Positions 2,259 through 61,860 of a DNA stretch of 64,000 nt are shown here, one piece after another; within the stretch, counting starts at the first letter, position 1, and every line of letters begins with the position of its first letter. Both the position numbers and the translations under genes were made by a program. The notes below the pieces were generated by a model, which did no database searches, was not told the DNA's origin, and saw only the letters and a program-made list of their open reading frames with translations. Source of the DNA: Chiloscyllium plagiosum (Eukaryota); NCBI RefSeq assembly GCF_004010195.1, contig NC_057718.1:10594474-10658473 (forward strand), written 5' to 3'.

Positions 2259-3363
2259 AGAGTCAAGATTAGAGTGGTGCTGGAAAAGCACAGCAGCATC
2301 CAAGGAGGAGGAAAATCAATGTTTCGGGCAAAAGCCCTTCATCAGGAATGAGGCAGGGAGCCACTTGGGTGGAGAGATAATTGGGAGGGAGGTGGGGCTG
2401 CAGGGAAGGTAGTTAAGAGTGCAGTAGGTGGATGGAGGTGGGGATGAAGGTGGTAAGTTGGAGAGGAGGGGGGAGCAGATAGCTGGAAGGAAGATGGGCA
2501 GGTCATGAGGATTGTGCTGAGCTGGCAGGTTGGAACTGGAGTAAGGTGGGTGGGAGAGGAAATGAGGAAACTTGTGAAGTCCACATTGATGCCCTGGGGT
2601 TGAAGTGTTCCGAGGCGGAAGATGAGGCATTCTTCCTCCAGGCATCAGGTAGTGAGAGAGTGGCGGTGGAGGAGGCCCAGGACCTGCATGTCCTTGATAG
2701 TGGGAGAGGGAGTTGAAATATTTGGCCACGGGGCGGCGGGGTTGATTGGTACGGGTGTCCCGGAGATGTTCCCTAAAGCGCTCTGCGAGAAGGCGTCCAG
2801 TTTCCCAATGTAAAGGTGACCACCTTGGGAGCATTGGATACAATAAATGACACTTGAGCAAGTGCAGGTGAAACTTTGGATGTGAAAGGCTCCTTTGGGT
2901 CCTTGGAGGAGTTGAGGGGGAGGTGTGGGTGCAGGTTTTGCAATTCCTGTGGTAGCAGGGGAAGGTGCCATTGTATCCGTTGCTCCCGATGCCATCTCCT
3001 TTACACTGGGGAGACTGGACACCTTCTCACAGCGCCTTAGGGAACATCTCTGGGACGCCCTCACCAATCAACCCCACCACCCCTTGGCTGTACATTTCAA
3101 CACCCCCTACCACAAGTCCTGAGCCACCTTCACTGTCACTCCCTCACCACCCAGTGCCTGGAGGAAGAATGCCTTATCTTCTGCCATGGAATACTTCAAC
3201 CCCAAGGCATCAATGTGGACTTCACCACTTTACTCATTCCTTCCCCGCCCCGCCCCAACCTTACCCCAGTTCCAACCTTCCCCCAGTTCCAACCTTCCAG
3301 CTCAGCACCATCCTTATGACCTGTCCCACCTGCCAATCTTCCTTCCCAGCTATCCGCTCCACC
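2259..3363. mobile_element. Penelope-like GIY-YIG/pLTR fragments in inverted arrangement (minus 2259-2960, plus 2965-3363)
   Basis: FTCTCSSVIYCIQCSQGGHLYIG and RLLAERFREHLRD GIY-YIG motifs; HHR-like motif on the minus strand at about 2314-2350. Confidence 0.8.
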
Positions 3364-3853
3364 NNNNNNNNNNNNNNNNNNNNNNNNNNNNNNNNNNNNN
3401 NNNNNNNNNNNNNNNNNNNNNNNNNNNNNNNNNNNNNNNNNNNNNNNNNNNNNNNNNNNNNNNNNNNNNNNNNNNNNNNNNNNNNNNNNNNNNNNNNNNN
3501 NNNNNNNNNNNNNNNNNNNNNNNNNNNNNNNNNNNNNNNNNNNNNNNNNNNNNNNNNNNNNNNNNNNNNNNNNNNNNNNNNNNNNNNNNNNNNNNNNNNN
3601 NNNNNNNNNNNNNNNNNNNNNNNNNNNNNNNNNNNNNNNNNNNNNNNNNNNNNNNNNNNNNNNNNNNNNNNNNNNNNNNNNNNNNNNNNNNNNNNNNNNN
3701 NNNNNNNNNNNNNNNNNNNNNNNNNNNNNNNNNNNNNNNNNNNNNNNNNNNNNNNNNNNNNNNNNNNNNNNNNNNNNNNNNNNNNNNNNNNNNNNNNNNN
3801 NNNNNNNNNNNNNNNNNNNNNNNNNNNNNNNNNNNNNNNNNNNNNNNNNNNNN
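3364..3853. other. Assembly gap (N run)
   Basis: run of N. Confidence 1.
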
Positions 3854-4069
3854 ACCCCTCTCCGGCCTATCACCCTCACCTTAACCTCCTTCCACCTATA
3901 GCATTCCCAACGCCCCCACCCCAAGTCCCTCCTCCCTACCTTTTATCTTAGCCCGCTTGGCACACCCTCCTCATTCGTGAAGAAAGGCTTATGCCCGAAA
4001 CGTCGATTCTCCTGCTCCTTTGATGCTGCCTGACCTGCTGTGCTTTTCCAGCAACACATTTTTCAGTTC
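3854..4069 (+). mobile_element. PLE family A pLTR fragment with a mutated HHR
   Basis: ttcgTGAAGAaaggcttatgcccGAAACGTCga; closely similar to 4523-4738. Confidence 0.8.
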
Positions 4070-4452
4070 AGATTTTTTATGCATTTTAAAATGTTTTATT
4101 ATCTTTGCATTACTATTCAAATTTATTTAGAAGGTCACATCCAGGATTAAATTAGTTAATGAAAATTTATTTTCATTACCTATAAAGTAGGAGTTTACTG
4201 GAATGATACCTGAACTTCAGGTATTAACTTATGAAAAGAGATTATATAAATTAGGCCTGTTTTCTCTTGGATTTAGAAGGGTAAGAGGTGATCTTGTGGA
4301 ATTTCTCAAAATACTAAGGCACATAGATAAAGACAAACTATTTCCATAGTTAGAATTAGGGGACACTGTCTGAGAATTAGGGTCAGACCATTCAGAAGAG
4401 ATGCTAGGAAACACTTCTGCAAACAGAAGTTTCAAAATCTATTTCACAAATG

Positions 4453-4770
4453 GGAGTCCCAACCCTCGGACTCAGCACTGCATTCTTGACCCGACTTCTT
4501 CTTCCCGACCTCTCTGCCCCCAACCCCTCTCCGGCCTATTACCCTCATCTTGACCTCCTTCCACCTATCGCATTCCCAACGCTCCACTCCCAAGTCCCTC
4601 CTCCCTACCTTTTATCTTAGCCTGCTTGGTACAACCTCCTTATTTCTGAAGAAGGGCTTATGCCCAAAACGTCGATTCTCCTACTCCTTGGATGCTGCCT
4701 GACCTGCTGCGCTTTTTCAGCAACACATTTTTCAGCTCTGATCTCCAGCATCTGCAGTCCTCACTTTCTC
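4453..4770 (+). mobile_element. PLE family A pLTR plus tail
   Basis: CTGAAGAagggcttatgcccaAAACGTC...gatctccagcatctgcagtcctcactttctc. Confidence 0.8.
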
Positions 4771-6316
4771 ATAACTGAATTAGTGGAAAACAATTAACTG
4801 TTTAAATGATATTGCGAAACTGGACAGCTTAATGCTCCCTAAAAACTAGTCCCATATGGAACTCATCCATGAAGAGTAAAAAGAAATTTAGCGAATTGAA
4901 AACCTAAGCTTCGTAGATCCAGAGGTTGCAGAGGACCAGATGGTGGCTAATGTGTTTCTTGTCCTTTTGAAAATGCTAATAGAAACGAAGAGTCTTTTCT
5001 GTGACATGCAATCTGGTTATGTGGGGGTAATTAGTTCCTTTTATAAAGAAATCTGTCCCAAAATATTGATTGTCATTTTACTTTAGTATAGAGAACACAT
5101 GCAATAGTTATATTAACGATTAAATAGTTAAATTAAACTAGTGGAAATGCACAAGTTCTGAAGGAATATTAATCAAATACTTCATTGGTGTTCTTGACAT
5201 GTTTTGCCCATCTAAATAAAGCTTCAAAAAATTTATCCATTTTTTTTTCCATTTATATATGCTATGTATTCATAGATCAAAACAAGAATGGAAGCAATGC
5301 CTAATCTCTACTTAATTTATTCAAATAATTTATCTTTCTGTCGAACAGTGAGCCATTTGCTGTCAGCATTCTGCTTCATTATATATTTCCCCCTTTCATG
5401 ATTTCCCTTCTGTCCAAGTAGAATGAGCTTAAGATTCCAGAAGGTATCTTTTTAATGACCTTGGATGATATTTTCAAGCTGTCTGTCATTTTTTTTGATA
5501 TCTGCTTTGACTTTGTGATTTGTGCTACAGTACAATGTAATCAGCCCAATAGATAATTCTTTGAAATGCTTCCAGAAACAATTTCAGAGCATTAATTTAA
5601 TCTAAACAATGTGCAATTTTGAATCATGTAACATTTTTGATTGTCCAGCACACTTAAGTTGGAAAGATCATCCATCTGTTAGGACAAAAATTGTTTGCCT
5701 TCTCCAAAAGTAATTGGGGTCTGCAAAATCCATTTCTAATTGTTCACTTTGAATATTTTGTTTGATTTAGTTTCTTTCCAATGTACCTATTCAGAATTAG
5801 GTTTTTTTTTGTATCTGATAGGTGCAATGTAATTTGGGGTTCTTTGGTAACACCATTGTACTGAATATTAGCACAATATAGAAATGCAAGTTGTTTTGTT
5901 CAGTTCCTGATGCGTATGGAGTGAATTGCTGTCTGGAGACCGCTTGTGGTACCTCCAAGAAGGTGTGAAAATTAACCAGTTGTAGTTGGGTAGTCCTCAA
6001 CTTTTCCTTAAGAAGCAATTGTGAGTATTGGTTGGAGCCTGGAAGTGGCCAGCTGCTTGGTTGGTGAACTTGTTAAACCACCTGATGGCAGAGCAGCATC
6101 AAATTTGTGAAAATTGAAATATTTTGAAACATATTTAAATGGTTTAGAAATTATGAATACTGTACATCTTTCCCCCATTGAACTAAATGTATATTTTTTG
6201 TCTTTAATTGTACAAATGTTATTCTGTTGAGTAAAACTTTAATTTAGTAAAATGCTATACATGTCTAAAGAAACTGCCAGTTTGCTCAGTTTACTGAATA
6301 CTGTTTTATTTATCAG

Positions 6317-9290: not shown

Positions 9291-10655
9291 TTGACTCTGC
9301 TTGCACCTGGCAGTTCAACCCAAGGAGAATAATTTCTTACACCGCTTTCACCCTAAAGCAAGTCTGCTTGATCAAATTCAAAAACACTGTCGTGGCTTTG
9401 AGGGGGCATGGTTGGTGTTGGAAAGAAACTGAAATTTGTGTCAGCTGTTCCTTTTGAATCCCATCATTGTGCTTTAAAGAAGATAAAACTAATACAAACT
9501 ATGACTAAACATCTTTTTCTAAGTTATAACCTTGAATGTTTGGAAGTATTATTTAAATATAGCTTTTGTTGTATCTTTGCACCATCTTCATGCTCCAAAT
9601 ATAGGCATGGTCATTATTGTGCATTATTCTTTGAATTACTAGATCACTTGCCTTTCAAAGGAGCAGTAGAATCATAACTGTTTATTTGACTTTTTTTTTT
9701 ATTTTTGCGTGGTGCATGCATATACACATTGACATAAGAACGTGTTTTAAAGAATCTTCATTTGTTTAATGCATGTCGTCGTCAGACTTCAGTCTAATCA
9801 GTATGTTTGCCTCAGTATGTGAGGTGGTTTTCTCTCATCTTTTTCATTTGTGCATCATTACCGAGATTGTAACATTTATAACTATATCACTTAAATTGAG
9901 ACATGATGGTTTGATAAGTAGAAGATTCAATAAGTCATAGGAAATAAGGGCAGTGAAGGAGTAAGGAATTCTACAGTAGTGATAGCAAATACAGTGTCAA
10001 TGTGGATAGCAGTTATGAAGCTGTTTTTAAGTAAAAATGAACAGACTCAGTTTTGTATAGCAAAAGAGGCTGGAGGTGAGAATTTCATGTTCAGACAAGT
10101 TCATTGTTCAAGGATGCGTAACCTTGCTCTGCTTTTTTTTTCTTGACAAGTCTTCATAGCAAATGCTACTGCCAGAATTTACATCCTCATTTCTGTATTA
10201 TATTTAATTTGTGCCTACCAGCTTCAGATTGCTATCATAAGGAGACTTAATCTTGGTATCTCCCCGTCAAGACACGTTAAATCTTTTGTTTCAATAATCT
10301 AACCTCCTATTCTTCTATACTCCAATGATTGAGCACACTGAGCTTACAATCTTTCCTCCTAAGTCAACCCCTTCCACCCAGGAATCAAATTACTGAGCCT
10401 TCTGAACTTCCTCAAAAGCAAGTAGATTCTTCTTTTAGATTAGAAAGTCAGTCTTATATTGCACTATTGATGACAGTTTCACCAATGGCTTGGACATTTG
10501 CAGCAAGATTTCCTTACTTTTATACTCCATGCCTTTTGCAATAAAACCTGACCTTTTATTTGCCTTCCTAATTGCAACTAGTACCTCCATGTTGAAGTTG
10601 AAACTTTATTGCTGGAACAGCACAGCAGGTCAGGCAGCATCCAGGGAACTGGAGA

Positions 10656-10689
10656 TTCGACGTTTCGGGCACAGGCCCTTCTTCAGGAA
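10656..10689 (-). ncRNA. Minimal hammerhead motif, antisense arm
   Basis: minus strand reads TTC-CTGAAGA-A-GGGC/CTGT/GCCC-GAAA-CG-TC-GAA. Confidence 0.8.
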
Positions 10690-10700
10690 GGGCCTGAAGA

Positions 10701-10740
10701 AGATTCCTGAAGAAGGGCCTATGCCCGAAACGTCGAATCT
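10701..10740 (+). ncRNA. Intact minimal type I hammerhead motif
   Basis: AGATTC-CTGAAGA-A-GGGC/CTAT/GCCC-GAAA-CG-TC-GAATCT; 6-bp stem I; predicted cleavage after C10734. Confidence 0.85.
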
Positions 10741-10992
10741 CCTGTTCCCTGGATGCTGCCTGACCTGCTGTGCTGTTCCAGCAATAAAGTTTCAACTTTG
10801 ATCTCCAGCATCTGCAGACCTCACTTTCTCCTCCATGTTGAACTTCATGATTCATCTACAAAATCTGACATTGTTGTGCAACATTTTACAGTCTGTCTTC
10901 ATTTTAAATAGTATGTTGTTCTTTCATTATTTCTACCATAGTGATCAAGATCGCATTTTCCCATGTTGTTCTCATCTGCCAAATTTTTACAA

Positions 10993-13909: not shown

Positions 13910-16900
13910 GTATGCAATATTCCAAATGTGGCCTTACCAACTTCTTGTATAGCTGTAACGTGACATTCTAACTGCTTTGATTAATGAAGGCAAGCGTGCC
14001 AAATACTACTTCAGTCTGTCTACCTGTGACACCACTTTCAAGGAACTATATAGCTGCATCCCTAGGTGTCCCCAGAGCCCTAACATTAACTGTGTAGGTC
14101 CTGTTTTGGCTTGTCTTACCAGAAGACAATATCCTGCATTTATCCAAATTAAACGCCATCTGCCATTTCTCAGCTCACTGGCCCAGTTGTTCAAGATCCC
14201 GCTATACTCTTAGAAAACCTTCTGTACTGTCTGCTATGGTACCAATTTTGGTGTCATTTACCAACTTATTAACTATGCAGCCTATATTCTTGTCCTTGGA
14301 GATGCATTGACTCCCTCCTTCAGGATTTTCTCCAATAGTTTGTCAATCACTTGTCAGACTCACTTGTCTATAGCTCCTTGGTTTACCCCTGTCACACTGT
14401 TAAAGTGGAACCACAGTAGCTATCCTCCAGCCCTCTGGCAGCTCCCCTTGGCCAGCCAGGAATGTAAAATTTTGGGTTAGAGCCTCTAATTTCCTCCCTT
14501 GTCTTCCAAAGCGAGCTGGGGTTTTGTCCACTTTGAAATCTGCCAAAGCCTCCAATGTCTTCCCATTCTCTCATTCCGTTGAAGAACATCTTAGTCCATC
14601 TTCCTACTTCTATACCTACATCCTGCATCTAAGTGAAGACCAGTAAAGTACTGAAGTCTTATTATTGTCCTCTGATTTCACACGTAGACACCTCAGTGGT
14701 CCCAAATGGGCACTACTTATTCCCTAATTATTCTCTTCTCCTTTACAGGATATCATGGGATTCTCCTTAATTTTACCCACCAGTGTTTCTTCATGTCCCT
14801 CTTTGTCTCCTAATTGCTTTCTTAAGATTCCCCTTGCACCTTCTGTACTCTTTTAGATCCTCTGTTCACTTGCTCCCTTTGTACCTATTAAAAGCCTCTC
14901 TCTTCCTTCTTACCCAATCCTAAATGTTCATAGACAGCCAGAGTTCTCTGGGCTTGTTGCTCCAACATTTCACCCTAAAGGGAGCATGTTGGACCTGTAC
15001 ATTCCCCATTTCCTTTTTGATCACCCCGGCTATTCTATTGTAGATTTACTCCGAAGCAGGAAGTCCGCCCCCACCACTTAACCCACCCACGTAAGTCCAA
15101 AACCTTTTCTGTAGGCTATCTCTTTCCTTGAACATAATGGGGCTGTTAACATGGTCACAAAAATGCTTACCGATTTTGTCACATTGTCTTAAATGCCACC
15201 TTAACCACCTGCTAAATTAGAACCAGAATTGTCTCCCTTGTTGGACCTTCTGGGTGTAACATAACATAAAACCCTGCAGAATACAGTTCAAGAAATCTAT
15301 CCTCTCTCAACCCTTACGCTATGACTACCCCAATTAATGTGTGGAAAGTGGAAGTCCCCTAATATAATGTCCCTAATGTTATTGTCACACATCAGTGAAT
15401 TATCTGCATATATGTCCCCTGCTGACTGTTTGACAATATCACTGTCCCCTTTTTATTCCTAAGCTCTACCCACAAAGCTTCATTTGAGGACCCTCCCAAG
15501 GTATCATCTCTCGCTACTGCAATAACTGACTCATTAATTAATAATGCAATATCACCAACACTGTCTTGTCTGAAGACCCTAATATAATTTTGAGTTGTCA
15601 GTCCTGCCCATCTGTCAACCACGTCTGTGTTGGCAGCAATGTCTCCATTCCACATATTAATCTGCGTCCTTAACTCATCTGTCTTCTCTATAATACTCCT
15701 AATATTAAGGTAGAGGCTGTCCAATCTCTCCTTATTCCCTTGAATCACAGCAAGGCTGAATTCCCTGCATTCTTGTTACTTTATTATGCTGCATCCCTAT
15801 TAGAGTCCCTTGCCCTTAATAAACTAATTTAAACTCCTCCCAACAGCATTGATAAATCTACCCACAAGGATGATGGTTCCATTCTGGTTCAAATGCAGAC
15901 CATCGCACTTGCACAAGTCCCAACATTCCCAGAAACAATCCCAGTGAGCCAGAAATCTAAAATACTCTTGAGTCACACATTCAATTGCATTATTCTCCAT
16001 TCTCCATTTGTTTTTCATTGTTAATTCATCAGTCTCGTTTTCTATGTGACCGTTGCTTACTTTGGCTACTTACTTTCTTTATCATATTTGTAGAAGCACA
16101 AACTGTGTGTTTGTTACTTTTTGCCAGATTTCTCTTACTCATTTGGGTGGACACATTAGAATATTTTTCCCAGTCTTCTGGTTATCTAATAATCTTCACC
16201 GTATTGTGGTTTCTTAGTTAATTTGATGTCATTCTTCATTAGCTGTACATGTTTTGTCTTTCTCATATAGTCTTAAATTATGAAACATCTCTCCTTAAAT
16301 TTCTAATCCTGTTTACATAACACATTTCCTTACCAATTTTTCTTTTTTTTTTCCCAGTCTGCTTTAGCTATCTCATTTTGGATTTCTTTTGTTAAAATTG
16401 AAGGTGCTCAATTCAGGCCCATGTTTCTTGCACTCAGACCCCATGTGAAATTTTTCCTGTTATGATCACTATTACCTAGAGGATTGTTCGCTATGAGATT
16501 TTAGATTTTAATCCTGAATCAATGAATATGACAGATCTCAAAAAGCAGTTCTCATGTCATACTTAACATGACATGATATGATTACAGCTGTATCACAAAA
16601 ATTAACCTCAGCAGCCTGCACACCAAAGACCAGTACAAAAGATAATCAGATAAATTTTACTTTCCCCTATTTTCACTTTACTAAATGGTTGTTTATTCTG
16701 GTAAAAATGGATAGGAATTTAGGGATAGATGTTGCAGTTCTAGATTTGGAACTAGATTTATTAATATGGGCAGGATATAAATACACTCAACCTCCTTTAA
16801 CATGAGCAATAATGTAGTTGCTGCTTTGAATACCATGACAATGTTTTGAAGGAATTAAGTAAAGGGATTGTTGTGTTTACAGGGAAATTAGGATACAAAT

Positions 16901-17240: not shown

Positions 17241-17443
17241 ATGATGTGGAGGTGCTGGTGTTGGACTAGAGTGTTCAAAGTCAGAATCCACAGGACACCA
17301 GGTTATAGTCCAACAGATTTATTTGAAATTGCAAGCTTTCCCTCGTCAAGTGGACTTCACCTGATGAAGGAGCAATGCTCCAAAAGCTTGTGATTTCAAA
17401 TAAATCTGTTGAACTATAACCTGGTGTCCTGTGAATTTGACTT
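17241..17443. mobile_element. Fold-back PLE family B mini-element
   Basis: long minus arm with tail at 17241-17353; short plus arm at 17355-17443 with an HHR whose GAAA is mutated to AAAA. Confidence 0.8.
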
Positions 17444-22810: not shown

Positions 22811-23365
22811 TACTTGGCTTTTAAACAAATACTGTAGCTCAGAGGCTGGGGAACACTGCCAAGGGTGGCTCACTTTCCACTTTCCCTTTCCCTAAGCCTA
22901 TCCACCACCTGAGATATGATTAATGGACTATTATTCACCTATTATCCAACAGTAATCGAACTTTATTCAGCTGACTACTCTGGAAGTCTGTGCCTCAGAG
23001 GGGTGGTGATTGGAGTTGTTGAATATTTTCGAAGATGGAGGTAACCTCTTATTATCCAAGGGAATCCATGTTTATCATGAGTAGGGGGAATGTTAAACTT
23101 GAAACATAGCAAATCAGCTATGACCTTTATTGAATGATGGAGCAGACTTGGTCCAATTTGCATTGTTGTGCTTATTCGCATTCTATTTTTCTCGTTTTTT
23201 AAGTAATGACTTTGCAAGAATTAAGTAATTGTTGAATTTGTTTCCTTGTCCTTTTCACGTAGACAAATCCATATTAAAACAATTCGCTGTTTAAAGCAAT
23301 TCCTCATACCAACAAAGTATCTGCAAATTGATGGAAAAATGCGTATGCTTCTGTTGTAGCAATAG

Positions 23366-23559
23366 GAGAAAGTGAGGTCTGCAGATGCTGGAGATCAAAG
23401 TTGAAACTTTATTGCTGGAACAGCACAGCAGGTCAGGCAGCATCCAGGGAACAGGAGATTCGACGTTTCGGGCACAGGCCGAAGAAGGGCCCGAAACGTC
23501 GAATCTCCTGTTCCCTGGATGCTGCCTGACCTGTGCTGTTCCAGCAATAAAGTTTCAAC
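23366..23559. mobile_element. Fold-back PLE family A mini-element, 16-bp TSD
   Basis: TSD tctgttgtagcaatag at 23350-23365 and 23560-23575; nearly identical to 10597-10829 but in the opposite orientation. Confidence 0.9.
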
Positions 23560-26071
23560 TCTGTTGTAGCAATAGCCTTACTTAAAATCTGACTTATTTA
23601 GACAGAATTCTTTGTGTTCCAAAATTGTTGAATAAATATTAATTGAATCATCCCCTTTTGTGATGCTGCCTAACGTCAATAGATGACCTCCTGTCAATAT
23701 AACAGATTACTATTTATAAATGTTTTTTTTTAAAAACGTTGTTGTGCTATTCCATGAATATTAACAAAAAAACACCATGTTACCCTTTTGGTAACAGAAC
23801 TTCCAACTCTTTCCCAGAAATTCTTGCTAGTTTATAAAGTACAGATCTACGTAATAACAGGTTAGGGTTTCATGTATTGCCGAAATGTAATTTGGAATCC
23901 ATTCAGAACATTGTTTACATTTGACTTTTTTTTGGTAAAGTTCATTTAAAATTAAAACACATTGATTCAGTTTCCTTTGTTTTGGCATCATTTGATCATC
24001 TGCTAGTACCGGGTGACACACACTATGGCTTCTGTTAACTAGATGATAGCTCTTTGGCTGAAAGCTACCAAGGATTTGATCATTTTTCTGAATCAATTCT
24101 CTGGTTGTTTTTAACAGCCTCTCACTCAGTACAGGAAAGATCAGAAGTTTAAAGGAGTAACAAATCCTCTGTTGCTCGAGTTCTGATTCAGTGAGTTGGT
24201 AATCCTGTCTACAGAAACAATGAATGACTTTGGTTTCTGATAGTCTTGTTGCAAAATACCACTTTGAAGATCTCTGTTAAAAGTTGAAGTCCTTTTATTC
24301 AAGAGCTGTTAAAAGCCTATTTGTTGAATTTTTGTGTGGTATGCAGAATTTCATAATTGACTGGCTTCCATGGAAAGAACTATTCCAACTTTCATAGAGA
24401 TTATAGCCAAATATTCCTCTTGTTCCTAGGGTGAGGCAATTTTTCAATGCTGTAAGCCAGCATATTTTTATACGGTGATGCAACTTAGGTCTGTAGTTAA
24501 TTATAGTTGGCAGTTTGACAGGGTATTATTATTCGGTTGCAAGTAATCTACGGTTTTATTGTGTGAAAGATACTACTCTAGAATTCCATCTTGGTGTAGC
24601 TTTTAAATGATATGCCCAGTTTTGAGTCCACGTTTGAGAGTTTGGACCTCTGACCTGGAGAATAAATTTTGATTAAATTGATCATGTAAAGTTGTCCATT
24701 GCAAGTTGTTGAGGTTCAGGAGTAGCAACCTTAGTGTTTAAAGGCTTCTTTAATATCTTGGACCAAAGATAGACTAACATTCAATTTTTAAGGGAAGTTA
24801 TCACAGATTAACAGTTCTCAGTAAAGAACATCAATAAGTATTAAGTTCCAGTGTTTCTACATTGCATTTCAAGGTAGCACATTCCTATTCCTCCTGTTGA
24901 AAAATACTGCTCAGCAAAATCCCCATGGGTTCTTCAGTTAGCATTTCATGGGCAATTAGGGACGGGCTATAAACGCTGACCTAGCTAGCGACATCCACAT
25001 CCCATTATCAAATTTGAAAAAATTATTTTGCATTTTTGGAAAGACTAGCAAATTGGACTTAATTGGTGGCTTTCTCGATTGTTCTTCATTCCTGATGCTA
25101 ACTCGTAAGTGTTTGTTTCATTACTTGTGGTCAATCTATATTAAGAGCAATGTAGGGTTTCCATTCATGAGTGAGGACAATCTGAAGGGTGTATCATGCA
25201 GCAATTCCAAATAGTCAGAGGGAGGGGATTCTTGTGTGCAAGATTTGCCTGTCTTGAAAATGTTGGTATCCGTATATTTCTCTCTCAAATGTCCTTGCAG
25301 TCTCAAAAGAGACATTCAAAGCATAGGTGAGAAGGGAGATGTAGCAGGGACTTGTTCTCGTGTGTAAAGTGCCTATTTGATTTTTAGCATGCGAGAGTTC
25401 AGTGAAATTTTTGAACTGTACGTTCACTTCCAATCTGAAAAATGACCATTTTGAAGTCGGGAGATTTTTCTATTCTTAGAAAACTATCAATCTCTAATGA
25501 ATTTGCATAACTCAAAAAATTATCCATTATTGTCCACCACCCTGTCTTGTCTTCATTCTGTTTAAAATTAACAAATGAAGGCCATCTTCATGGTAGACTA
25601 AAAGAAACTGTAGAAAATCTCCATTTGACCAGATTATTATGGTAAGTGATTTCCTCTTAAGATGAGGGCTGAATTGCTATACAGTATGTAAACTTTTGTT
25701 CAGCTCACATTAGTGAAATTATAAGTTAACCAAAAGTGAGTTAAACAAGAGTATTGCACCAATATATTTCATGTATTCACAAAACTCCTTTATCCCCCAT
25801 CCTTCTTTTGGTTTATTTTCCTTTTACTCGCCTCCTTCATGTCTTCTACCCTCTTCTGTCTTCCATAGCCCATCCCAACCCCCCACCCCATGACCTTCTC
25901 ATCACACCCCACTGCCACCATTTTTTCCATCTAGCTACAGTATAGGCAGTGTCTTGTTTTGAAGCTTTTGGTGGTTCTAACCCAGCTGTTGTATTTGCGA
26001 ATGCTCGCTGTTCCATCACTCATCAATTTCTTGTTTTATTTCCCCGCTTACGGCCGCTCTGTTGCGAACAG

Positions 26072-30684: not shown

Positions 30685-31150
30685 AAATGAAATACTTCAG
30701 ATATTGGAGATCTGAAATAAAACCAAAATGCAAAAAAAAAACCCATCCAACAAGAACCTGAAGAGGAGTTATAATGGACTCAAACACTAACTCTGTTTCT
30801 TGCTCCACAGATGTTGCCAGATGTGTTGTATTTCTCCAGTATTTTGTTTTTATTTCTTCATAATTAGATTTTGTTTTAAAAAGTCATTCTCTAACTGTGT
30901 GTATATTGTTGGTACGGGTGTACATCACAAAAAGAAAAGCATTACATAAATAAAAACCAAAATTACTGGATAAGCTCAGTAGTTCTGGCAGCATCTATGG
31001 AGAGAAAGCAGAGTTAGCATTTTGGGTCCAGAGACCCTTCCTCAGAATCTGAAATAAAACACAAAAACACAAAATTCTGGAAATCCTCAACACATCTGAC
31101 TGCATGTGTGGAAAGAGAAGCATGGTGAATTTTGGGGTAAAGGCACTCTG
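30685..31150. mobile_element. Cluster of old PLE family D pLTR fragments
   Basis: ctccacagatgttgccaga; ggcagcatctatggagagaaagcagagttagcattttgggtccagagacccttcctcagaa (HHR on the minus strand). Confidence 0.6.
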
Positions 31151-32171: not shown

Positions 32172-32365
32172 AAACGAAGAACTGCAGATCCGAGAGATCT
32201 CTCTGGCATCTGTGGGGGTGGTGGGAAGCAGATTTGATGTTTTGAGTCCAGTGACTTCTTCAGAAAGTCACCAGACTCAAAACGTTAACTCTGCTTTGTT
32301 CCCACAGATGCTGCCAGACTTGCTGAGTTTCTACAGCCTTTTGTTGTGTGTTTTTGTTACAGAAT
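32172..32365. mobile_element. Fold-back PLE family D element
   Basis: gttttgagtccagtgactt versus aagtcaccagactcaaaac; ctggcatctgtggg versus cccacagatgctgccag. Confidence 0.7.
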
Positions 32366-32396: not shown

Positions 32397-32715
32397 GTGG
32401 CGGCACGGTGGTTAGCACTGCTGCCTCACAGCGCCAGAGACCCAGATTCAATTCCCGGCTCAGACAACTGTCTGTGTGGAGTTTGCACATTCTCCCTGTG
32501 TCTGCGTGGGTTTCCTCTGGGTGCTCCGGTTTCCTCCCACAGTCCAAAAATGTGCAGGTTAGGTGAATTGGCCATGCTAAATTGCCCAAAGTGTTAGGTG
32601 AAGGGGTAATTGTAGGGGAATGGGTCTGGGTGGGTTACACTTCGGAGGGTTGGTGTGGACTTGTTGGACCGAAGGGCCTGTTTCCACACTGTTAGTAATC
32701 TAATCTAATCTAATC
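32397..32715 (+). mobile_element. V/HE1-type tRNA-derived SINE, near full length
   Basis: ggcggcacggtggttagcactgctgcctcacagcgcc head, V core and (taatc)n tail. Confidence 0.9.
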
Positions 32716-41443: not shown

Positions 41444-41476
41444 GTAAGTATGATACTATTGTGCCGGTTCAATGAC

Positions 41477-41596
41477 GTAGTGGTGCTAATGCTGGACTAG
41501 GGTAGACAAAGTTTAAAAATCACAACAGGTTATAGTCCAACAGGTTTATTTGGAAGTACTAGCTTTCAGAGCACTAGCCCTTCGTCAGGTACCTCA
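41477..41596 (-). mobile_element. PLE family B pLTR end, 10-bp TSD
   Basis: gttcaatgac at 41467-41476 and 41597-41606; minus strand reads tacCTGACGAa...GAAAGCTAgta. Confidence 0.75.
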
Positions 41597-41853
41597 GTTC
41601 AATGACAAAAGTCAAAATGCTTTTTGAACGCATTCAGACAAAGTCAATGAATCAACTTGCACTGGCTTCTTGTCTTGCTCCTGCACCACTTCTTTTGGTG
41701 CTCCCTGAAGATCTATCCTTAGCTGTCTTCTGATTTTATTTACGTTATCTACATGTCACAATCATCTGAAAACACAGCCTCAAGCCAAGTTATACCTTAC
41801 TACTGCCTCTGTACACTCTCAAATGTCTTTAAATTGCGTAACCTCTTGTCTGA

Positions 41854-41944
41854 GCTGAAAATGTGTTGCTGGAAAAGCGCAGCAGGTCAGGCAGCATCCA
41901 AGGAACAGGAGAATCAACGTTTTGGGCATAAGCCCTTCTTCAGG
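41854..41944 (-). mobile_element. 91-bp PLE family A single arm, 13-bp TSD
   Basis: acctcttgtctga at 41841-41853 and 41945-41957. Confidence 0.88.
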
Positions 41945-42099
41945 ACCTCTTGTCTGATACCTGGTGCAGGATAAACAGAAATGTCTTCCAAATTAATACT
42001 GGGAAGATGAAAGTTATTATCTTCTCTCCGTGCCATAAATCCTGTTTCAAGGTGCACTACCTTCATTCCTTTCCATTGGCATCTTTGAGGCTGGGCCAG

Positions 42100-43573: not shown

Positions 43574-43871
43574 GGGGGCGGCACTGCTGCCTCACAGCGC
43601 CAGAGACCTGGGTTCAATTCCCGTCTCAGGCCACTGTCTGTGTGGAGTTTGCACATTCTCCCCGTGTCTGCATGGGTTTTCTCCGGGTGCTCCGGTTTCC
43701 TCCCACAGTCCAAAGATATGCAGATTAGGTGAATTGGCCATGCTAAATTGCCCGTAGTGTTAGGTGAAGCGGTAAATGTAGGGGAATGGGTCTGGGTGAT
43801 TTGCTTTTCAGAGGGTTGGTGTAGACTTGTTGGGCCAAAGGTCCTGTTTCCACACTAAGTAATCTAATCTA
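43574..43871 (+). mobile_element. V/HE1-type SINE with the A-box region deleted
   Basis: gggttcaattcc B box, V core and taatct tail. Confidence 0.9.
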
Positions 43872-52100: not shown

Positions 52101-55100
52101 TCCATCCTTTAGCCAAGTTTCTTTAATAGCTATGATATCCTAATCCTGTGTTCCAAACATGCCCTGAGTTTATCAGCCTTACCTGTGAGCCCCTTGCATT
52201 GAAATAAGTGCAATTTAATTCTTAAGAGTTATTTGTTCTCTTCCCCTCATGAGTCTTGTTTGATTTGTCTCCTGAACCTTACACATGCTTCCCTTTTCTT
52301 TTCAAATTAACTTTTAACGTGTCTCATCGGTTCCTGAATCTTGCCATTCTTGCCTTTCAAACTCTCATATATCTGATAGTGGTCTTGAATGACAGTCTTA
52401 ACCTTACCCCTATCCATAAGTAACTTGAAATTTATGAAATTATGATTACTGTTCCCAAAATGCTTCCTCAGTGAAACTTTGATCACCTGGTCAGGCTCAT
52501 TCCCCAATGCAAGGTTTAATACAGCCTATTCCCTAGTTGGACTACCTACATTTTGTTTCAAGAATACCTCCTGGATGCACCAAACAAATTCTGCCCTATC
52601 TAAGCCTTTGGCACTAAGGGAGTTCCAGTGAATTTGGAGAAATTAAAATCACACACTAACACAACCCTGTTGTTTTCACACCTTTCCACGAGCTGCTTCT
52701 ACATCTGTTCCTGCAATTCCTGTTGGCTATTGGGTGGCCAAAATATAACCCAATTATCGTCATTATACTTTTTTATTCCTAAATTCTATCTAAATTTCCT
52801 TGCTGGATGTGTCCTCCAAGATGTCCTCTTTTAGTACAGCTGTGACATTCTCCTTAATCAGTAATACAACTCCTTCACCCCTTTTCTGTCAAGCCTGAAA
52901 TATCTAAATCCTGGAACATTTAATTGCCCCTCCAGGCTTTCTCTCCACAAAGTTTCTGTAATAGCTACCACATTGTACACGCATACAATGATGCAAGCTA
53001 TAAGCTCACCTGCCTTGTCTGTTAGTCATTGCATTAAAATAAATACACTTCAGACTGCTAGTCCTGCTGTGTTAATTAGCCTTGTCATGGTTGTTCTTCC
53101 TACAAAACTGACTTAATTTTGCCCCTCTTTTTTTCTTTAAATACTCCACATGCTGAGCTGCTCTGGTTCCCACCGTCCTCACCCCACCATGCTGGTTTAA
53201 ACTGTCCTGAGTGGTTCAGGTTGTAAGCTTGCTTACTGAGCTGCAGGGTTTGTTTTCCGACATTTCGTCACCATGCTAGGTAACGACATCAGTGAGCCTC
53301 CGGTGAAGCGCTGGTGTTCTGTCCTGCTTTCTATTTGTGTCTTGATCGGTTAAGGTGGGTGATATCATTTCCGGTTCTTTTTCTCAGAGGTTGGTAAATG
53401 GGATCCAAATCAATGTGTTTATTGATGGAGTTCCGGTTTGAATGCCAGGCCTATAGGAATTCCCATGCGTGTCTCTGTTTAGCCTGCCCTAGGATGGATG
53501 TGTTGTCCCAGTCAAAGTGGTGTCCTCCTTCATCTGTGTGTGAGGATACTCTTGATAGCAAGTCATATCTTTTGGTGACTAGTTGGTGTTGGTGTATCCT
53601 GGTGGCTAGTTTTCTGCCCGATGTAGTGTTTATTACAGTCCTTGCAGGGTATTTTGTAAATGACATTGATTTTGCTGGTTGTTGGTATAAGGTCCTTTAG
53701 GTTCATCAGTTGCTCTTTCAGTGTATTGGTAGGTTTGTGGTTTATCATGATGCCGAGAGGTCGGAATAGTCTGGTAGTCATCTCCAAGATGTATTTTGAT
53801 GTTCCTGAAAGACAACAGACTCCCAGAAGAAACCCAGCAGGCCATCAGACAGACAGTTGCATCAACACTAAGCAGGAAAAAGGAAGGGAGCACCCTCAAC
53901 ACACAGGAAAGTCAAGTCCTGCAAGGGCCGAAAACATTGCAGACAAAGGGCGCATGACTGTCATCCTGAACAGAACACAGTACATTGAAAAGGCAAACTC
54001 ACTGCTCGCAGATGCCAACACTTACCAAGAGATGGCGATAAACCTGACTCCACAGCCAGAAAACCGTGCCACAGCTTTATTGAAGAAGTTTCATAAATCA
54101 GGCAAAATTAACAAGAAAGATCTCCAAAAAACGAAACCTGATGGATCCAACACACTTCGATTCTACACATTACCTAAGATACATAAACCAGAGGCACCCC
54201 TTAGACCTATAGTCTCACTCCCAGCCACAGTGATCTACAGACTAGCAAAGGAACGCCACCGAAAACTAAAATACCTAGTAGAAGACTCATGCTACTCCAT
54301 CCACACCACTCAAGAATTCCTGAACATCATCAAAGACATCGAGATAGAGAATGAAGTAATGGTCTCCTTTGATGTAACAGCCCTATTCACATCAATTAAC
54401 ACCAGCCTGGCCAAAGAAACACTGGCTGCACTACTAGACGAACCAAGGACACTAACACGAGACAGCACCAACATCATCGGCAAGGACAACATCCTCAATC
54501 TGTGACTCACTACCCAATTCACCTTCAATAACAAAACCTACAAAGAAATCAACGGAACACCTTTGGGATCACCAATATCAGACTTCTTATGGGCAGTAAT
54601 GCAGAGACTAGAGAGAAAAACAGCCCTCCCCACGATCTACCCCCAACCTTTGGGTCCACCAATTTGTCATTACAAAATGGAACAAATTAGAGGAAACCTA
54701 CAACATCATTAATAACGTCCTTACTGGTATAATGTTCACGAAAGAGGAAGAGAACAACAACAGACTCCCCTTCCTAGATGTCACAGTAGAACGAAAAGCC
54801 AATGGAGAGCTGCAGACCAGCGTCTACAGGAAACAACATGCACAGACCAGATACTCAACTACAAAAGAAATCATCCCAACACGCACAAATGGAGCTGTAT
54901 CAGAACATTATTTAAAAGTGCCACAACACACTGCAGCACCAGGAATTAACAAATGGCAGAAGAAAAATATTAATACAGCAAATTCAAGAACAATGGGTAT
55001 CTAATAAATACAATCCTCTGATTCTTAAACTACAAACCCAAACAAGCAGTCACAACATGCCCAGAAACTCTAGCCACACTATCAGACACATCTTGGAGTT

Positions 55101-56030
55101 GACTACCAGACTACCCTAACCCGTTGGCATCATGGTAGCCCACAAACCTACCAACATACTGAAACAGCAACTGATGAACCGAAAGGACCCCATACCAACA
55201 ACCAGCAAAATGAATGCCATTTACAAAATATCCTGCAAGGACTGTAACAAACACTACCTCGGACAGTCAGGCAGAAATCTAGCCACCAGGATACACTAAT
55301 ACCAACTAGCCACCAAAAGATATGACTCGCTATCACTAGTATCCTCAGACGAAGAGAGATACCACTTCGACTGGGACAACACATCCACCCTAGGACAGGC
55401 TAAACAGAGACACATGCGAATTCCTAGAGACCTGGCTTTCAAACCGGAACTCCATCAATAAACACATCGATTTGGACCCTATTTACCAATCTCTGAGAAA
55501 AAGAACCAGAAATCATGTCACCCACCTTAAAAGACCAAGACCCACAAATCGAAAGCGGGACAGAACACCAGCACTTCACCGCAGGCTCACTGCTGATGCT
55601 ACCTAGCATGGTGACGAAATGTTTGAAAACAAACCTTGCAGCTCAGCGAGCAAACTTACAACCTGCACCTCAACCTGAGCTACAAATCTTCTCAAAAAAT
55701 CGCAATCTCCTGACTGGCATTAACAAATCTCTTTGCAAGGATATTGGTAACCCTCTAGTTTAAATGCAACCCATTCTTCTTGTACTGACCCCATCTGCCC
55801 TGAAAGTGTTCCCAATGATTCATATATCTGAATCCCTCCCTTGTGCACCAGCTCTTTAGCCATGCATTCAGCAATATCTTCCTATTTCTGGTCTCGCTGG
55901 TATGTGGCACAGGGAATAACCCCAGATTACAACCCTACAAGTCCTGCTTTTCAGCTTCCGATCGAACTCCTCATTTATTTTTGCAGGACCTCATGTCTCT
56001 TGCTGCCTATGTCATTAGTACTATTAGACA
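49160..56030 (-). mobile_element. Long nested CR1 array (RT, APE, ORF1) interrupted by a Penelope element
   Basis: KKDRGAKRRGGVALLIKE (APE); HLLEYCVQLWSP and RRLRSDLVEVYKI (RT C-terminus). Confidence 0.85.
53215..55705 (+). mobile_element. Penelope-like retroelement (family C): decayed RT plus GIY-YIG plus pLTR, with an inverted 5' arm
   Basis: DKGRMTVILN, FYTLPKIHKPEAPLRPIVS, VSFDVTALFTSI, GTPLGSPIS, FTKEEENNNRLPFLDVTV...VYRK, IYKISCKDCNKHYLGQ; 53215-53792 mirrors about 55088-55668. Confidence 0.93.
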
Positions 56031-56911: not shown

Positions 56912-58345
56912 CATAGAACATAGAAGAATACAGCGCAGTACAGGCCCTTCGGCCCTCGATGTTGCGCCGATCCAAGCCCACCTAACCTACACTAGCCCAC
57001 TATCCTCCATATGCCTATCCAATGCCCATAATGAGGGAGAGTCCACCACTGCTACTGGCAGGGCATTCCATGAACTCACGACTCACTGAGTAAAGAACCT
57101 ACCCCTAACATTTGTCCGAAACCTACCTCCCCTTAATTTAAAGCTATGCCCCCTCGTAATAGCTGACTCCATACGTGGAAAAAGATTCTCACTGTCGACC
57201 CTATCTAAACCCCTAACCATCTTNNNNNNNNNNNNNNNNNNNNNNNNNNNNNNNNNNNNNNNNNNNNNNNNNNNNNNNNNNNNNNNNNNNNNNNNNNNNN
57301 NNNNNNNNNNNNNNNNNNNNNNNNNNNNNNNNNNNNNNNNNNNNNNNNNNNNNNNNNNNNNNNNNNNNNNNNNNNNNNNNNNNNNNNNNNNNNNNNNNNN
57401 NNNNNNNNNNNNNNNNNNNNNNNNNNNNNNNNNNNNNNNNNNNNNNNNNNNNNNNNNNNNNNNNNNNNNNNNNNNNNNNNNNNNNNNNNNNNNNNNNNNN
57501 NNNNNNNNNNNNNNNNNNNNNNNNNNNNNNNNNNNNNNNNNNNNNNNNNNNNNNNNNNNNNNNNNNNNNNNNNNNNNNNNNNNNNNNNNNNNNNNNNNNN
57601 NNNNNNNNNNNNNNNNNNNNNNNNNNNNNNNNNNNNNNNNNNNNNNNNNNNNNCCTAAACTGCACACAATATTCCAGATGCGGTCGTACCAGAGTCTTAT
57701 ACAACTGCATCATGACCTCAGGACTCCGGAACTCAATTCCTCTACCGATAAAAGCCAGTACGCCATATGCCTTCCTCACCGCACTATTTACCTGGGTGGC
57801 AACTTTCAGAGATCTGTGTACATGGACACCAAGATCCCTCTGCTCATCCACACTACCAAGTATCCGACCATTAGCCCAGTACCCCATCTTTTTGTTATTC
57901 TTCCCAAAGTGAATCACCTCGCACTTAGCTACATTGGATTCCATCTGCCACCTTTCTGCCCAGCTCTGCAGCTTCTCTATATCCTGCTGTAACCTGCCAC
58001 ATCCTTCCTCACTGTCTACAACTCCTCCTACTTTCGTATCATCCGCAAACTTGCTCACCTAACCTTCTAACCCCTCTTCCAGGTCATTTATAAAAATGAC
58101 AAACAGCAATGGTCCCAAAACAGATCCTTGCGGAACACCGCTAGTGACGGCACTCCAAGATGAACCTTTGCCATCAACTACTACCCTCTGTCTTCTTCCA
58201 GCCAGCCAACTCCTAATCCAAACCACCAACTCACCCTCAATGCCATACCTCCGTATTTTTTGCAGTAGTCAACCATGGGGAACCTTATCAAACGCCTTAC
58301 TAAAATCCATATACACCACATCTACCGCTTTCCCCTCGTCCACCT
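56912..58345 (-). mobile_element. Young CR1 LINE, 5' truncated, spanning a gap
   Basis: uninterrupted RT frame SKFADDTKVGG...TLVRPHLEYCVQF; clean 3' tail. Confidence 0.93.
57224..57652. other. Assembly gap (N run)
   Basis: run of N inside the CR1. Confidence 1.
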
Positions 58346-60163: not shown

Positions 60164-60955
60164 GTAAGTTCTTTGCTTTCCATTAAAGCAATGCCGATTA
60201 GTTTCTTGTGCATGTTTGTTCTCCACTGTTTGAGCTGTTTTCCCCATATTCAAACTGTGAATGCTAATGTTTGTGTTGAATGAATGTATGCTTGTGAGAG
60301 AGTTCAGCATGTAAAAAATAGTTCAGTTATTTGAAAACATTCACAGTAAATACTTTTTTAAAAACTTTATTGTGTTTGTATATGTTATCTGCTACAGATC
60401 AATTAAGTAATATTTTATTCACATTTTTCTATATGACAACATAAATAAAACTTGCAGTATTTCTGTTCCTCATTAACCCATTACACAGAAGAAATGAAGT
60501 TGGAGGAATGAATTTGTGGCTCAAAGACCAGTGGGAGAAGTGGGTACACTGGCACTATTACTGGGAAAGTGGGATTTACTCTATGCAGGGCAGGTATTTT
60601 GGTCATAACTAGTGAATTAAAGAGGGTTTTAAACTAATTGGTGGGAACAAGGGATCAAATTTGGCAAGATGTGGTAGATGAAGAGTTTCTACGTGGCACA
60701 AAAAGTTAGTAAGATGTTAAATGAAAAACCATTCATGCCCGGAAGGGATGGAGAATACAATACCAAGAGTGAATTGATAGATGGATGAGAAATTACAAAA
60801 ACAATAAAAAGCAAAACTAAAAGTTCTATATATTAATGCATGCAACAATTGGAACAAAACACATGATTTGATAAAACAATTTGTAACATATAATTCAAAT
60901 TGGTAGCCATTACAGAGACAGGGCTAAAAGGTGAAGTAGGTTGGAACCTGAATAG

Positions 60956-61085
60956 GAGAAAGTGAGGACTGCAGATGCTGGAGATCAGAGTTGAGTGTGT
61001 GGTGCTGGAAAAGCACAGCTGGCCAGGCAGCTCCTTGGATGCTGTCTAACCTGCTGTGCTTTTCCAGCACCACAATCTTGACACT
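60956..61085. mobile_element. Fold-back PLE family A mini-element lacking the HHR, 12-bp TSD
   Basis: gaacctgaatag at 60944-60955 and 61086-61097; gtggtgctggaaaagcacagc versus gctgtgcttttccagcaccac. Confidence 0.88.
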
Positions 61086-61639
61086 GAACCTGAATAGTCA
61101 AGGATCTCAAAATCCAAGAGAATGTGAAGGCCAGCTCCCTTAATTAATGAAGAAATGAGCACTATGGAGAGGGGTGATTTTAAGTTCAGGAAACCAGGAG
61201 CTAGAAGGCAAGAAGTTACTTTACTAATAATCACACAATGTAATAAAGTATAAACAAACAAATAATGAGAGCTTATCCTGCTGTTTTATCAATTTATATA
61301 TATGATGTATATGCAGAAGTACCCGATAAGTTCATTGTATGTTTTCAGGTGTATTCCTTAACATAGTACATTTTGGAATTAACCAAAGAGCAGGATATTT
61401 TGGTTTGTAAAATGAGATAAGATTGGTCAATGACCTCATAGTGAAGGCACTCTTTTTGTTAGCATCGATGATAATATGGAACTTTACATCGTTTGAGGGA
61501 GAGATTAATGGTTCCAAAACTAGTATTTTGACTGCCCTCATTCTGCACTGGCACCTTAATGATTCTCTGGCTTGGATGAAGGGATCAAAGGTACGGTTGC
61601 AATTTTTGCTGATGGTACAACGATAGATCATAAGTACAA

Positions 61640-61860
61640 CTGAAAGAATTGAGGATGCTGTAAATTAGAAACAAAAAGAGAAGTTGATGGGAAAGCTCAG
61701 CAGGTCTGGCAGCATCTGTGCAGAGAAATCAAAGTTAACAATTTTGGTCCTGTGACCCTTCCTCAGAACATGTTTCATAGTTCTGAGGAAGGGTCACTGG
61801 ACCCAAAAACTTTGATTTCTTTTCACAGATGCTGCCAGACCTGCTGAATTTTTTCAGTTC
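61640..61860. mobile_element. Fold-back PLE family D element with paired HHR remnants
   Basis: perfect 18-bp (61752-61769/61780-61797) and 23-bp (61698-61720/61824-61846) inverted matches; gttCTGAGGAaGGGTCactgGACCCaAAA. Confidence 0.8.

What the first reader, a model, noticed from the sequence alone, without database searches (positions are those of the whole stretch)
23350..23575. Sister fold-back copy: opposite orientation, same outer endpoints, different centre
Seen: 16-bp TSD tctgttgtagcaatag. The arms are almost identical to the 10.6-kb copy. The short arm stops at the same point (...aataaagtttcaac) and the long arm ends at the same tail (ctttctc). The centre differs (gggcacaggccgaagaagggcccgaaa) and breaks both HHR cores within stem II. 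The shared short-arm endpoint lies in a small self-complementary motif, aaagtt-tc-aacttt. Inference: both outer ends are mechanistically fixed, while the turn-around point is variable and falls in or near the HHR. This suggests reverse transcriptase stalling or template switching at the ribozyme.
Basis: partly seen in the sequence, partly recalled or inferred. Interest (0 to 1): 0.75.

Follow-up and report, generated by a model that had tools for sequence, protein, structure and literature searches.

The report
Fold-back stub of Penelope-like retroelement
This is a real, recent insertion of two back-to-back end pieces of a Penelope-like jumping gene in a shark-type genome; its fixed outer ends are a published feature of these elements, and its centre appears to differ between animals, so it is weak evidence that copying stalls at the ribozyme.

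Summary
In detail: a 194-bp head-to-head insertion with an exact 16-bp TSD, confirmed by an empty orthologous site in a related species. It is a 5'-truncated pLTR fold-back of a Neptune/Nematis-type Penelope-like element (PLE). The long arm exceeds the short arm by 34 nt, the published PLE 'tail' between two RT start sites, and 11 of 11 family arms in the window end at one of those two registers. So 'fixed outer ends' is right but known. The ribozyme claim is weaker. Six of 11 arms begin at -4..+9 of the hammerhead core (post hoc p 0.0006-0.14), but that is the motif's 5' edge, past the cleavage site and past both 3' stem strands, where a structural stall is not expected. Other junctions lie well outside. 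The locus also looks unstable: one same-species run carries this junction without the window's stem II deletion, and another has lost 185 bp of the hairpin at a 7-bp microhomology. Best model: two target-primed cDNAs joined at their ends, then eroded. Open lead: the cDNAs may run off the transcript's 5' end at about -4.

The parts
23350..23365 (+). Left target-site duplication, 16 bp; its last 2 nt also match the element's native continuation
   Evidence: single copy at the empty site in run X5 (record 16)
23366..23480 (-). Long arm: pLTR end from +9 (inside hammerhead stem II) to +123 (tail end)
23366..23399 (-). 34-nt tail, present on the long arm only
   Evidence: matches the 30-40-bp PLE tail (PMC8557442)
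23453..23480 (-). Hammerhead remnant on the long arm: stem II minus its first G, GAAA, GUC site (between 23462 and 23461) and stem I 3' strand; CUGAAGA core missing
   Evidence: register
23481..23559 (+). Short arm: pLTR end from +2 to +89; 6-nt deletion between 23491 and 23492 (removes loop II), 3-nt deletion near 23532
   Evidence: a contig of X1 lacks the 6-nt deletion (table 7)
23480..23481 (.). Head-to-head junction, blunt (no shared letters, no filler)
   Evidence: sequence
23560..23575 (+). Right target-site duplication
23358..23542 (.). 185 bp missing in a same-species allele, bounded by the 7-bp repeat AGCAATA (TSD and short arm)
   Evidence: X15 record 10
10584..10842 (+). Sister fold-back: 13-bp TSD, short arm 10597-10689 (minus, starts -3), 13-nt filler 10690-10702 made of core sequence, long arm from 10703 (starts -4, complete minimal hammerhead)
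2270..2969 (-). Older, longer copy of the same pLTR family, continuous with a frameshifted GIY-YIG endonuclease piece and CX4CxxC linker; ties the family to a PLE
60944..61097 (.). Older fold-back of the same family, 12-bp TSD, same tail end, junction at +48/+38, outside the hammerhead
41841..41957 (-). Solo tail-less copy, 13-bp TSD, starts at -2, ends at the short register

Best explanation
A dead-on-arrival insertion made by an endonuclease-bearing Penelope-like element of the Neptune/Nematis type. Inferred steps: the GIY-YIG nuclease nicks both target strands 16 nt apart; each 3' end pairs with 1-3 nt of the pLTR RNA and primes a cDNA, one at the outer start site (tail end, +123) and one at the inner site (+89); both cDNAs stop after 80-130 nt, are joined to each other, and repair fills in the TSD. 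The outer ends are fixed because they are where RT starts; the centre varies because it is two stop points plus end joining. Afterwards the near-perfect hairpin collects small and large microhomology deletions. Shown: the anatomy, the TSD, the family link to a PLE, the two end registers, the alleles. Inferred: the two-primer route, the order of events and the cause of the stop points.
For: Exact TSD with an empty site in organism B. 34-nt arm difference equals the published tail. 5 of 5 tail-bearing arms and 6 of 6 tail-less arms of the family in the window end within about 3 and 6 nt of two registers. Loose ends at 23363-23365 are among the largest listed in all four runs (X19: 11995 at 23364, 5186 at 23365). 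Young-type reads fall from about 9,580 at 23407 to at most 6,470 at 23398, across the short end (hand arithmetic, table 3). A longer copy runs into a GIY-YIG piece (tblastn E 8e-23 to P0001; relative P0002 has RVT_1 and GIY-YIG). An Anolis PLE nicks and extends both strands, starts at two internal sites and uses uncleaved RNA (PMC11167929). The 10.6-kb centre is a patchwork of restarts in the core, as end joining would leave. Hairpin of -93.7 kcal/mol as DNA; deleted allele in X15 and fuller centre in X1.
Against: The biochemistry is from a Poseidon element, not this clade. A snap-back route gives the same geometry and cannot be excluded with arms this alike. The X1 and X15 alleles rest on one contig each; the X1 contig could come from another locus. 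Only 15 of 158 joints and 24 of 734 loose-end rows were shown, and no genome assembly was available, so the genome-wide junction map was not made.
Confidence: 0.78

Rival explanations
1. One reading: RT stalls or switches template at the folded hammerhead.
For: 6 of 11 arms start within -4..+9 (scan p 0.0006-0.045 over four nulls; 4 of 7 insertions, p 0.009-0.14). Short copies of two other hammerhead-bearing families also start near the core. In 7 of 8 listed skip joints one arm starts between about -4 and +33. One arm starts at +38, near the 3' edge of stem I.
Against: RT meets stems from their 3' side (about +32..+36 for stem I, +19 for stem II); the main cluster is beyond these, where the partners are already displaced (inference). 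All four arms of the two sister copies run through the GUC site, so cleavage did not set the ends. The other arm of those 8 joints lies at +40..+102. The reference used can only show joints near the motif. The test was post hoc.
Confidence: 0.2
2. Run-off model: the template RNA begins at about -4, just 5' of the core, so initiation at its 5'-proximal start sites gives 'strong-stop'-like cDNAs of 93 and 127 nt; trimming and joining give the -4..+9 spread.
For: No short arm in the window starts between -5 and -190; starts at -4, -3, -2, +2, +3, +9 look like a wall with nibbling. An initiator-like YYANWYY (consensus recalled) has its A at -4 in 2 of 3 long copies, with only 2 other matches in 554 nt. 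One X15 joint also starts at about -4 (table 5c). pLTR promoters with Inr-like motifs are reported for Adineta and Drosophila PLEs.
Against: No RNA data. The same letters form the 5' strand of stem I, which could explain their conservation. Consensus loose ends at 23474 and 23480 continue upstream of the core, so many copies pass -4. Small n.
Confidence: 0.27
3. The centre is largely secondary: post-insertion deletion at the hairpin tip or assembly error, with the apparent clustering due to small numbers and ascertainment.
For: Three forms at or like this locus: window, X1 (no 6-nt deletion), X15 (185 bp lost). Both small deletions sit in micro-repeats (GCC, CTG). Spacers of inverted repeats are hypermutable in human somatic data (PMC5737083, abstract only).
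Against: Solo copies with no hairpin also start at -2 and +3. The 10.6-kb centre has gained templated letters, which simple deletion does not give.
Confidence: 0.25
4. Self-priming: one cDNA (or an antisense template) folds back and copies itself; the nuclease resolves it at the inner site, leaving the tail on one side.
For: Proposed for Adineta PLEs from palindromes at inverted junctions (PMC3846280); nuclease resolution is suggested for the tail (PMC8557442). Arms are nearly identical.
Against: This junction is blunt, with no fold-back seed. The inner end also occurs on solo copies without a hairpin (41.9 kb), which a second RT start site explains directly.
Confidence: 0.2
5. A fold-back master element is copied as a unit, so the shared ends are inherited, not remade.
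For: Arms 99% alike; one joint (23443 to 23489) stands at depth 160-177 in X1 against 7-9 for unique flanks.
Against: Different junctions and different TSD lengths in the three fold-backs of the window; the same ends occur on solo and long copies of older subfamilies. Contig depth is not a copy number.
Confidence: 0.07

Closest known systems
Inverted-pLTR plus tail insertions of canonical EN+ Penelope-like elements (Arkhipova et al. 2013, PMC3846280; Craig et al. 2021, PMC8557442)
   Same: Head-to-head 5'-truncated copies, optional 30-40-bp tail on one arm, TSD of variable length, hammerhead in the pLTR.
   Different: Both arms are cut to under 130 nt and no ORF is left; the 16-bp TSD is longer than the 8-10 bp in the Adineta passages read; about 10^4 young arms per genome.
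Poseidon_Ac (PAc) internal initiation at two adjacent sites (Frangieh et al. 2024, PMC11167929)
   Same: Two fixed 3' ends bracketing the tail; both strands extended; uncleaved RNA as template; an ATT/AAT word lies 2 nt from the tail junction here and at 61 kb.
   Different: This family has the CX2-5CxxC linker that Penelope/Poseidon lack; no stable stem-loop around the start sites was found; the parts read do not map inversion junctions.
Minimal type I hammerheads of metazoan PLEs (Cervera and De la Pena 2014, PMC4209133)
   Same: Core, extra base before stem II, 4-bp stem II, 5-bp stem I, palindromic helix III region; pairs of motifs on opposite strands 100-700 bp apart were already noted.
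   Different: Both motifs are destroyed in this copy.
Non-LTR retrozymes (Li, Clavereau and Pollet, bioRxiv 10.64898/2026.07.22.740005)
   Same: Non-coding, hammerhead-bearing, PLE-derived.
   Different: Retrozymes are head-to-tail tandems with a complete hammerhead in each unit; this is a head-to-head pair with none intact.

Membership tests
EN+ Penelope-like element insertion | pLTR belongs to an element with RT and C-terminal GIY-YIG | tested here: met
   At family level: the 2270-2969 copy joins this pLTR to a GIY-YIG piece; P0002 has RVT_1 8.5e-11 and GIY-YIG 1.2e-7. Direct Pfam scans of 5 single-frame window pieces found nothing significant. This copy has no ORF.
EN+ Penelope-like element insertion | Minimal type I hammerhead in the pLTR | tested here: met
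   Complete in the 10.6-kb long arm, stems I and II fold; broken in this copy; not detected by Rfam.
EN+ Penelope-like element insertion | Adjacent inverted 5'-truncated copy, head to head | tested here: met
EN+ Penelope-like element insertion | 30-40-bp tail on one end | tested here: met
   34 nt
EN+ Penelope-like element insertion | TSD of variable length | tested here: met
   16, 13, 12 and 13 bp in 4 of 6 copies searched, none in 2; empty site
Neptune/Nematis-type PLE | CX2-5CxxC linker before the GIY-YIG motif | tested here: met
   CX4CxxC in the 2316-3026 frame and in P0001 and P0002; criterion from PMC8557442
Neptune/Nematis-type PLE | Placement by RT phylogeny | not tested
   No RT of this family in the window; no reference set at hand
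EN+ Penelope-like element insertion | RT initiation at the two end registers; hammerhead self-cleavage | not testable with these tools
   needs biochemistry
Non-LTR retrozyme | Two or more tandem units, each with a complete hammerhead | tested here: not met
   inverted arrangement, no intact motif (definition)
MITE or fold-back DNA transposon | Terminal inverted repeats reaching both ends and a fixed TSD length (criteria recalled) | tested here: not met
   arms differ by 34 nt at the outer end; TSD 12-16 bp; arms are retroelement pLTR
Fold-back master copied as a unit | Same junction in many copies | tested here: inconclusive
   3 of 3 short fold-backs of the family in the window differ; one high-depth joint

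The most novel reading that the evidence does not exclude
Short PLE cDNAs end at a hard boundary at about -4 of the hammerhead core because that is the transcript's 5' end. The fold-back stubs would then be two 'strong-stop'-like cDNAs primed on opposite target strands and ligated to each other, and the roughly 10^4 young arms in this shark would be a natural library for mapping the unexplained inversion step of PLE transposition at base resolution, together with the rate at which new palindromes are deleted in a vertebrate germ line.
Probability: 0.25. Interest if true: 0.65.

Novelty: new member of a known kind. Interest (0 to 1): 0.3.

Why it matters
How PLEs make their inverted ends is called undefined in the 2021 paper read here. 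This copy does not settle it, but a young, very abundant family with two fixed start sites makes the question testable by counting junctions in one assembly. The allele data add a caution: centres of such hairpins seem to change after insertion, or in assembly, so single-copy junctions should not be read as RT events. As a single locus it is an ordinary dead insertion.

Tried and rejected
No whole genome was held, so the genome-wide plot could not be made. Pattern scans for more copies: metagenomes gave 3 loci that share only the 24-25-nt word inside unrelated sequence (dropped as chance); viral contigs 0; prokaryote genomes 0. Rfam: no hammerhead hit. Pfam on 5 window frames: nothing significant. 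RNAalifold on 5 arms: 24 pairs, none with a compensatory change; the 3' region folds no better than shuffles (z -0.51 to 1.37), so no conserved stem-loop at the start sites is shown. The 14-nt motif slice folded was offset by two bases and was redone. My first guess of the Poseidon clade was dropped because of the linker. The idea that the two 61-kb arms came from different subfamilies was dropped: both are 2-3 changes from one loose-end consensus. Hammerhead cleavage as the turn-around was rejected because the arms run through the GUC site. X19 covers the locus at under 1x and says nothing on presence or absence. Earlier-finding look-ups by sequence and by nearby place returned nothing.

Full report
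Observation. The insert spans 23366-23559 (194 bp) between two exact 16-bp repeats. Coordinates below count C3 of the hammerhead core CUGAAGA as 0; the GUC site is +27/+28. The long arm lies on the minus strand from +9 to +123, the short arm on the plus strand from +2 to +89. The long arm differs from the 10.6-kb copy's long arm at 1 of 112 aligned letters. The junction is blunt.

The TSD is real. Four public runs were laid on 22900-24050. In X5 (organism B, about 3% divergent in the flanks: 31 other letters in 941) one contig joins 23349 directly to 23560: an empty site with one TSD copy. Letters diagnostic of the young subfamily are almost absent from X5 (depth 2533, of which 2444 another letter, at 23407) but dominate in X1 (1.09 million, of which 4879 another letter); contig depth is not copy number, but the contrast suggests that the subfamily expanded after the two lineages split. 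In raw reads (X19) about 9,580 reads carry the young letter at 23407 against about 0.8 in unique flanks (22 bins, two repeat bins left out; hand arithmetic), so of the order of 10^4 arms.

What family. An older copy at 2270-2969 continues from the same pLTR into a frameshifted GIY-YIG piece. Its best relatives were 2 of 31 candidates: P0001, named by its source as from Chiloscyllium punctatum, and P0002, with RVT_1 and GIY-YIG domains; tblastn gives E 8e-23 and 3e-12 on this stretch. The CX4CxxC linker points to the Neptune/Nematis type, not Penelope/Poseidon; no RT tree was built. The 10.6-kb long arm folds as a minimal type I hammerhead, as described for metazoan PLEs (PMC4209133, parts 1-2 of 4 read). 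The host species was not determined.

Outer ends. The arms differ by 34 nt. Craig et al. describe an inverted 5'-truncated copy and a 30-40-bp tail on one end as typical of PLE insertions (PMC8557442, passages); Arkhipova et al. show the same with a 31-bp tail and 8-10-bp TSDs (PMC3846280, passages). Frangieh et al. show in vitro that an Anolis PLE nicks and extends both strands, starts RT at two internal sites that bracket the tail, and does not need hammerhead cleavage (PMC11167929, parts 1-2 of 4 read; supplements not read, and its Figs S1-S2 may bear on 5' ends). In the window, 5 of 5 tail-bearing arms end within about 3 nt and 6 of 6 tail-less arms within about 6 nt, across subfamilies and including solo copies. 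Genome-wide, loose ends at 23363-23365 are among the largest listed in all four runs, and young-type reads drop by about a third between 23407 and 23398 (9,580 to at most 6,470), which fits a common short end although no loose-end row at 23400 was among the 24 of 734 shown.

The centre: for clustering. Family arms start at about -615, -499, -192, -4, -3, -2, +2, +3, +9, +38, +48 (the two longest are approximate). Six of 11 fall in 14 nt. A scan statistic gives p 0.0006-0.045 for arms and 0.009-0.14 for 4 of 7 insertions under four nulls; the test is post hoc and the arms of one insertion are not independent. Short copies of two other hammerhead-bearing families also start near the core (61.7, 32.2, 31.0, 17.3, 41.6, 11.0 kb), but without an upstream reference that could be their natural 5' end. 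A fourth family (43-466, 53-55 kb) turns far upstream.

The centre: against a ribozyme stall. The 61-kb fold-back turns at +38/+48. In the 8 fold-back-type skip joints among the 15 of 158 joints shown, the tail-side arm starts at +40..+102 and the other at about -4..+33 in 7 and +67 in 1; the reference hides joints further upstream, so this is biased, and short contigs at 90% likeness can mis-align. Consensus loose ends at 23474 and 23480 continue upstream of the core, so many copies pass it. RT reads RNA 3' to 5' and meets stems at their 3' strands (about +32..+36 and +19); stops at -4..+9 come after both are copied, and after the cleavage site (inference). A wall at -4 with nibbling fits a template 5' end better; an initiator-like word (consensus recalled) has its A at -4 in 2 of 3 long copies, with 2 other matches in 554 nt, and pLTR promoters are reported in other PLEs (PMC3846280; PMC2377424, abstract and passages). 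These letters are also stem I, and there is no RNA evidence, so this stays a lead.

The locus looks unstable. X1 (same species) has both outer junctions, and one contig that follows the window to 23491 and then continues with the six letters the window lacks; to be laid there it must hold the junction (inference; it might come from another locus). In X15 (same species, another sample) a single contig at flank depth joins 23357 to 23543: 185 bp are gone between two copies of AGCAATA, leaving both TSDs and 10 nt of short arm between them. That the contig is unbroken suggests this is that animal's main allele, but it is one contig and a library or assembly artefact is not excluded. The hairpin is -93.7 kcal/mol as DNA. 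Hypermutable spacers of inverted repeats are reported in human tumours (PMC5737083, abstract only). The 10.6-kb centre, by contrast, holds 13 extra letters made of overlapping core pieces joined at 3-nt microhomologies, which looks like a primary end-joining scar between ends at -3 and -4.

Mechanism. Most likely two target-primed cDNAs, one from each start site, joined at their 3' ends and flanked by a 16-bp TSD (0.78 for the overall reading). The cause of the stop points is open: run-off at the RNA 5' end 0.27, mainly secondary change or ascertainment 0.25, ribozyme stall 0.2; snap-back 0.2 as an alternative route; a fold-back master 0.07. These are not all exclusive.

Novelty. The structure is a known PLE by-product. 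Searches found no paper that maps PLE inversion junctions relative to the hammerhead or treats shark PLE stubs; the library lacks most subscription journals, and listed papers other than those named were seen as listings only. The retrozyme preprint was read in part 1 of 5. Earlier notes of this scan on the same genome reach the same general reading; they are unchecked AI notes and are not counted as support. Verdict: real, young, ordinary in kind; interest 0.3.

Noticed in passing
window 23358-23542 (run X15, record 10): Same-species allele in which nearly the whole hairpin is deleted at a 7-bp microhomology, leaving TSD + 10 nt + TSD.
   Followed up: partly
joint 23443 to 23489: One junction at depth 160-177 in X1 and 59 in X15 (flanks 7-9 and 13): possibly a multi-copy fold-back or internal deletion form.
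   Followed up: no
joint 23396 to 23364: Tandem duplication of the tail seen in all four runs (37 reads in X19).
   Followed up: no
joints 23394-23420 to 23474, opposite strands: 275 X19 reads in four rows suggest fold-backs whose tail arm is little more than the tail while the other arm reaches the hammerhead.
   Followed up: no
window 23363-23399 (-): The tail ends in a pyrimidine run, and loose-end consensus letters hint at a following YAG, like a 3' splice site; an ATG in loop II of most copies meets a stop inside the tail. Agreement of the consensus is only about 0.34.
   Followed up: no
window 61680-61860, 32200-32360, 17241-17443, 30760-31150: Fold-backs or paired stubs of two other hammerhead-bearing PLE-like families, several turning within a few bases of the core; no TSD of 8 bp or more found for the first three.
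   Followed up: partly
window 41467-41606: Solo stub of another family with a 10-bp TSD and a short palindrome at its 5' end at -2.
   Followed up: no
window 53213-55669: A different PLE with RT remnants (53660-55004; tblastn to P0002 E 7e-11) flanked by about 580-bp inverted repeats; the related fold-back at 43-466 turns about 180 nt or more upstream of its hammerhead.
   Followed up: partly
window 2270-4775: Cluster of older family copies: two endonuclease-bearing arms head to head near 2960, a gap of N at 3364-3853, and a further copy from 4455.
   Followed up: partly
window 57213-58058, 15392-15775 and others: Decayed LINE-like ORF pieces and repeated SINE-like segments (1088, 32415-32690, 43581-43856); the labels CR1 and HE1 are recalled, not tested.
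   Followed up: no
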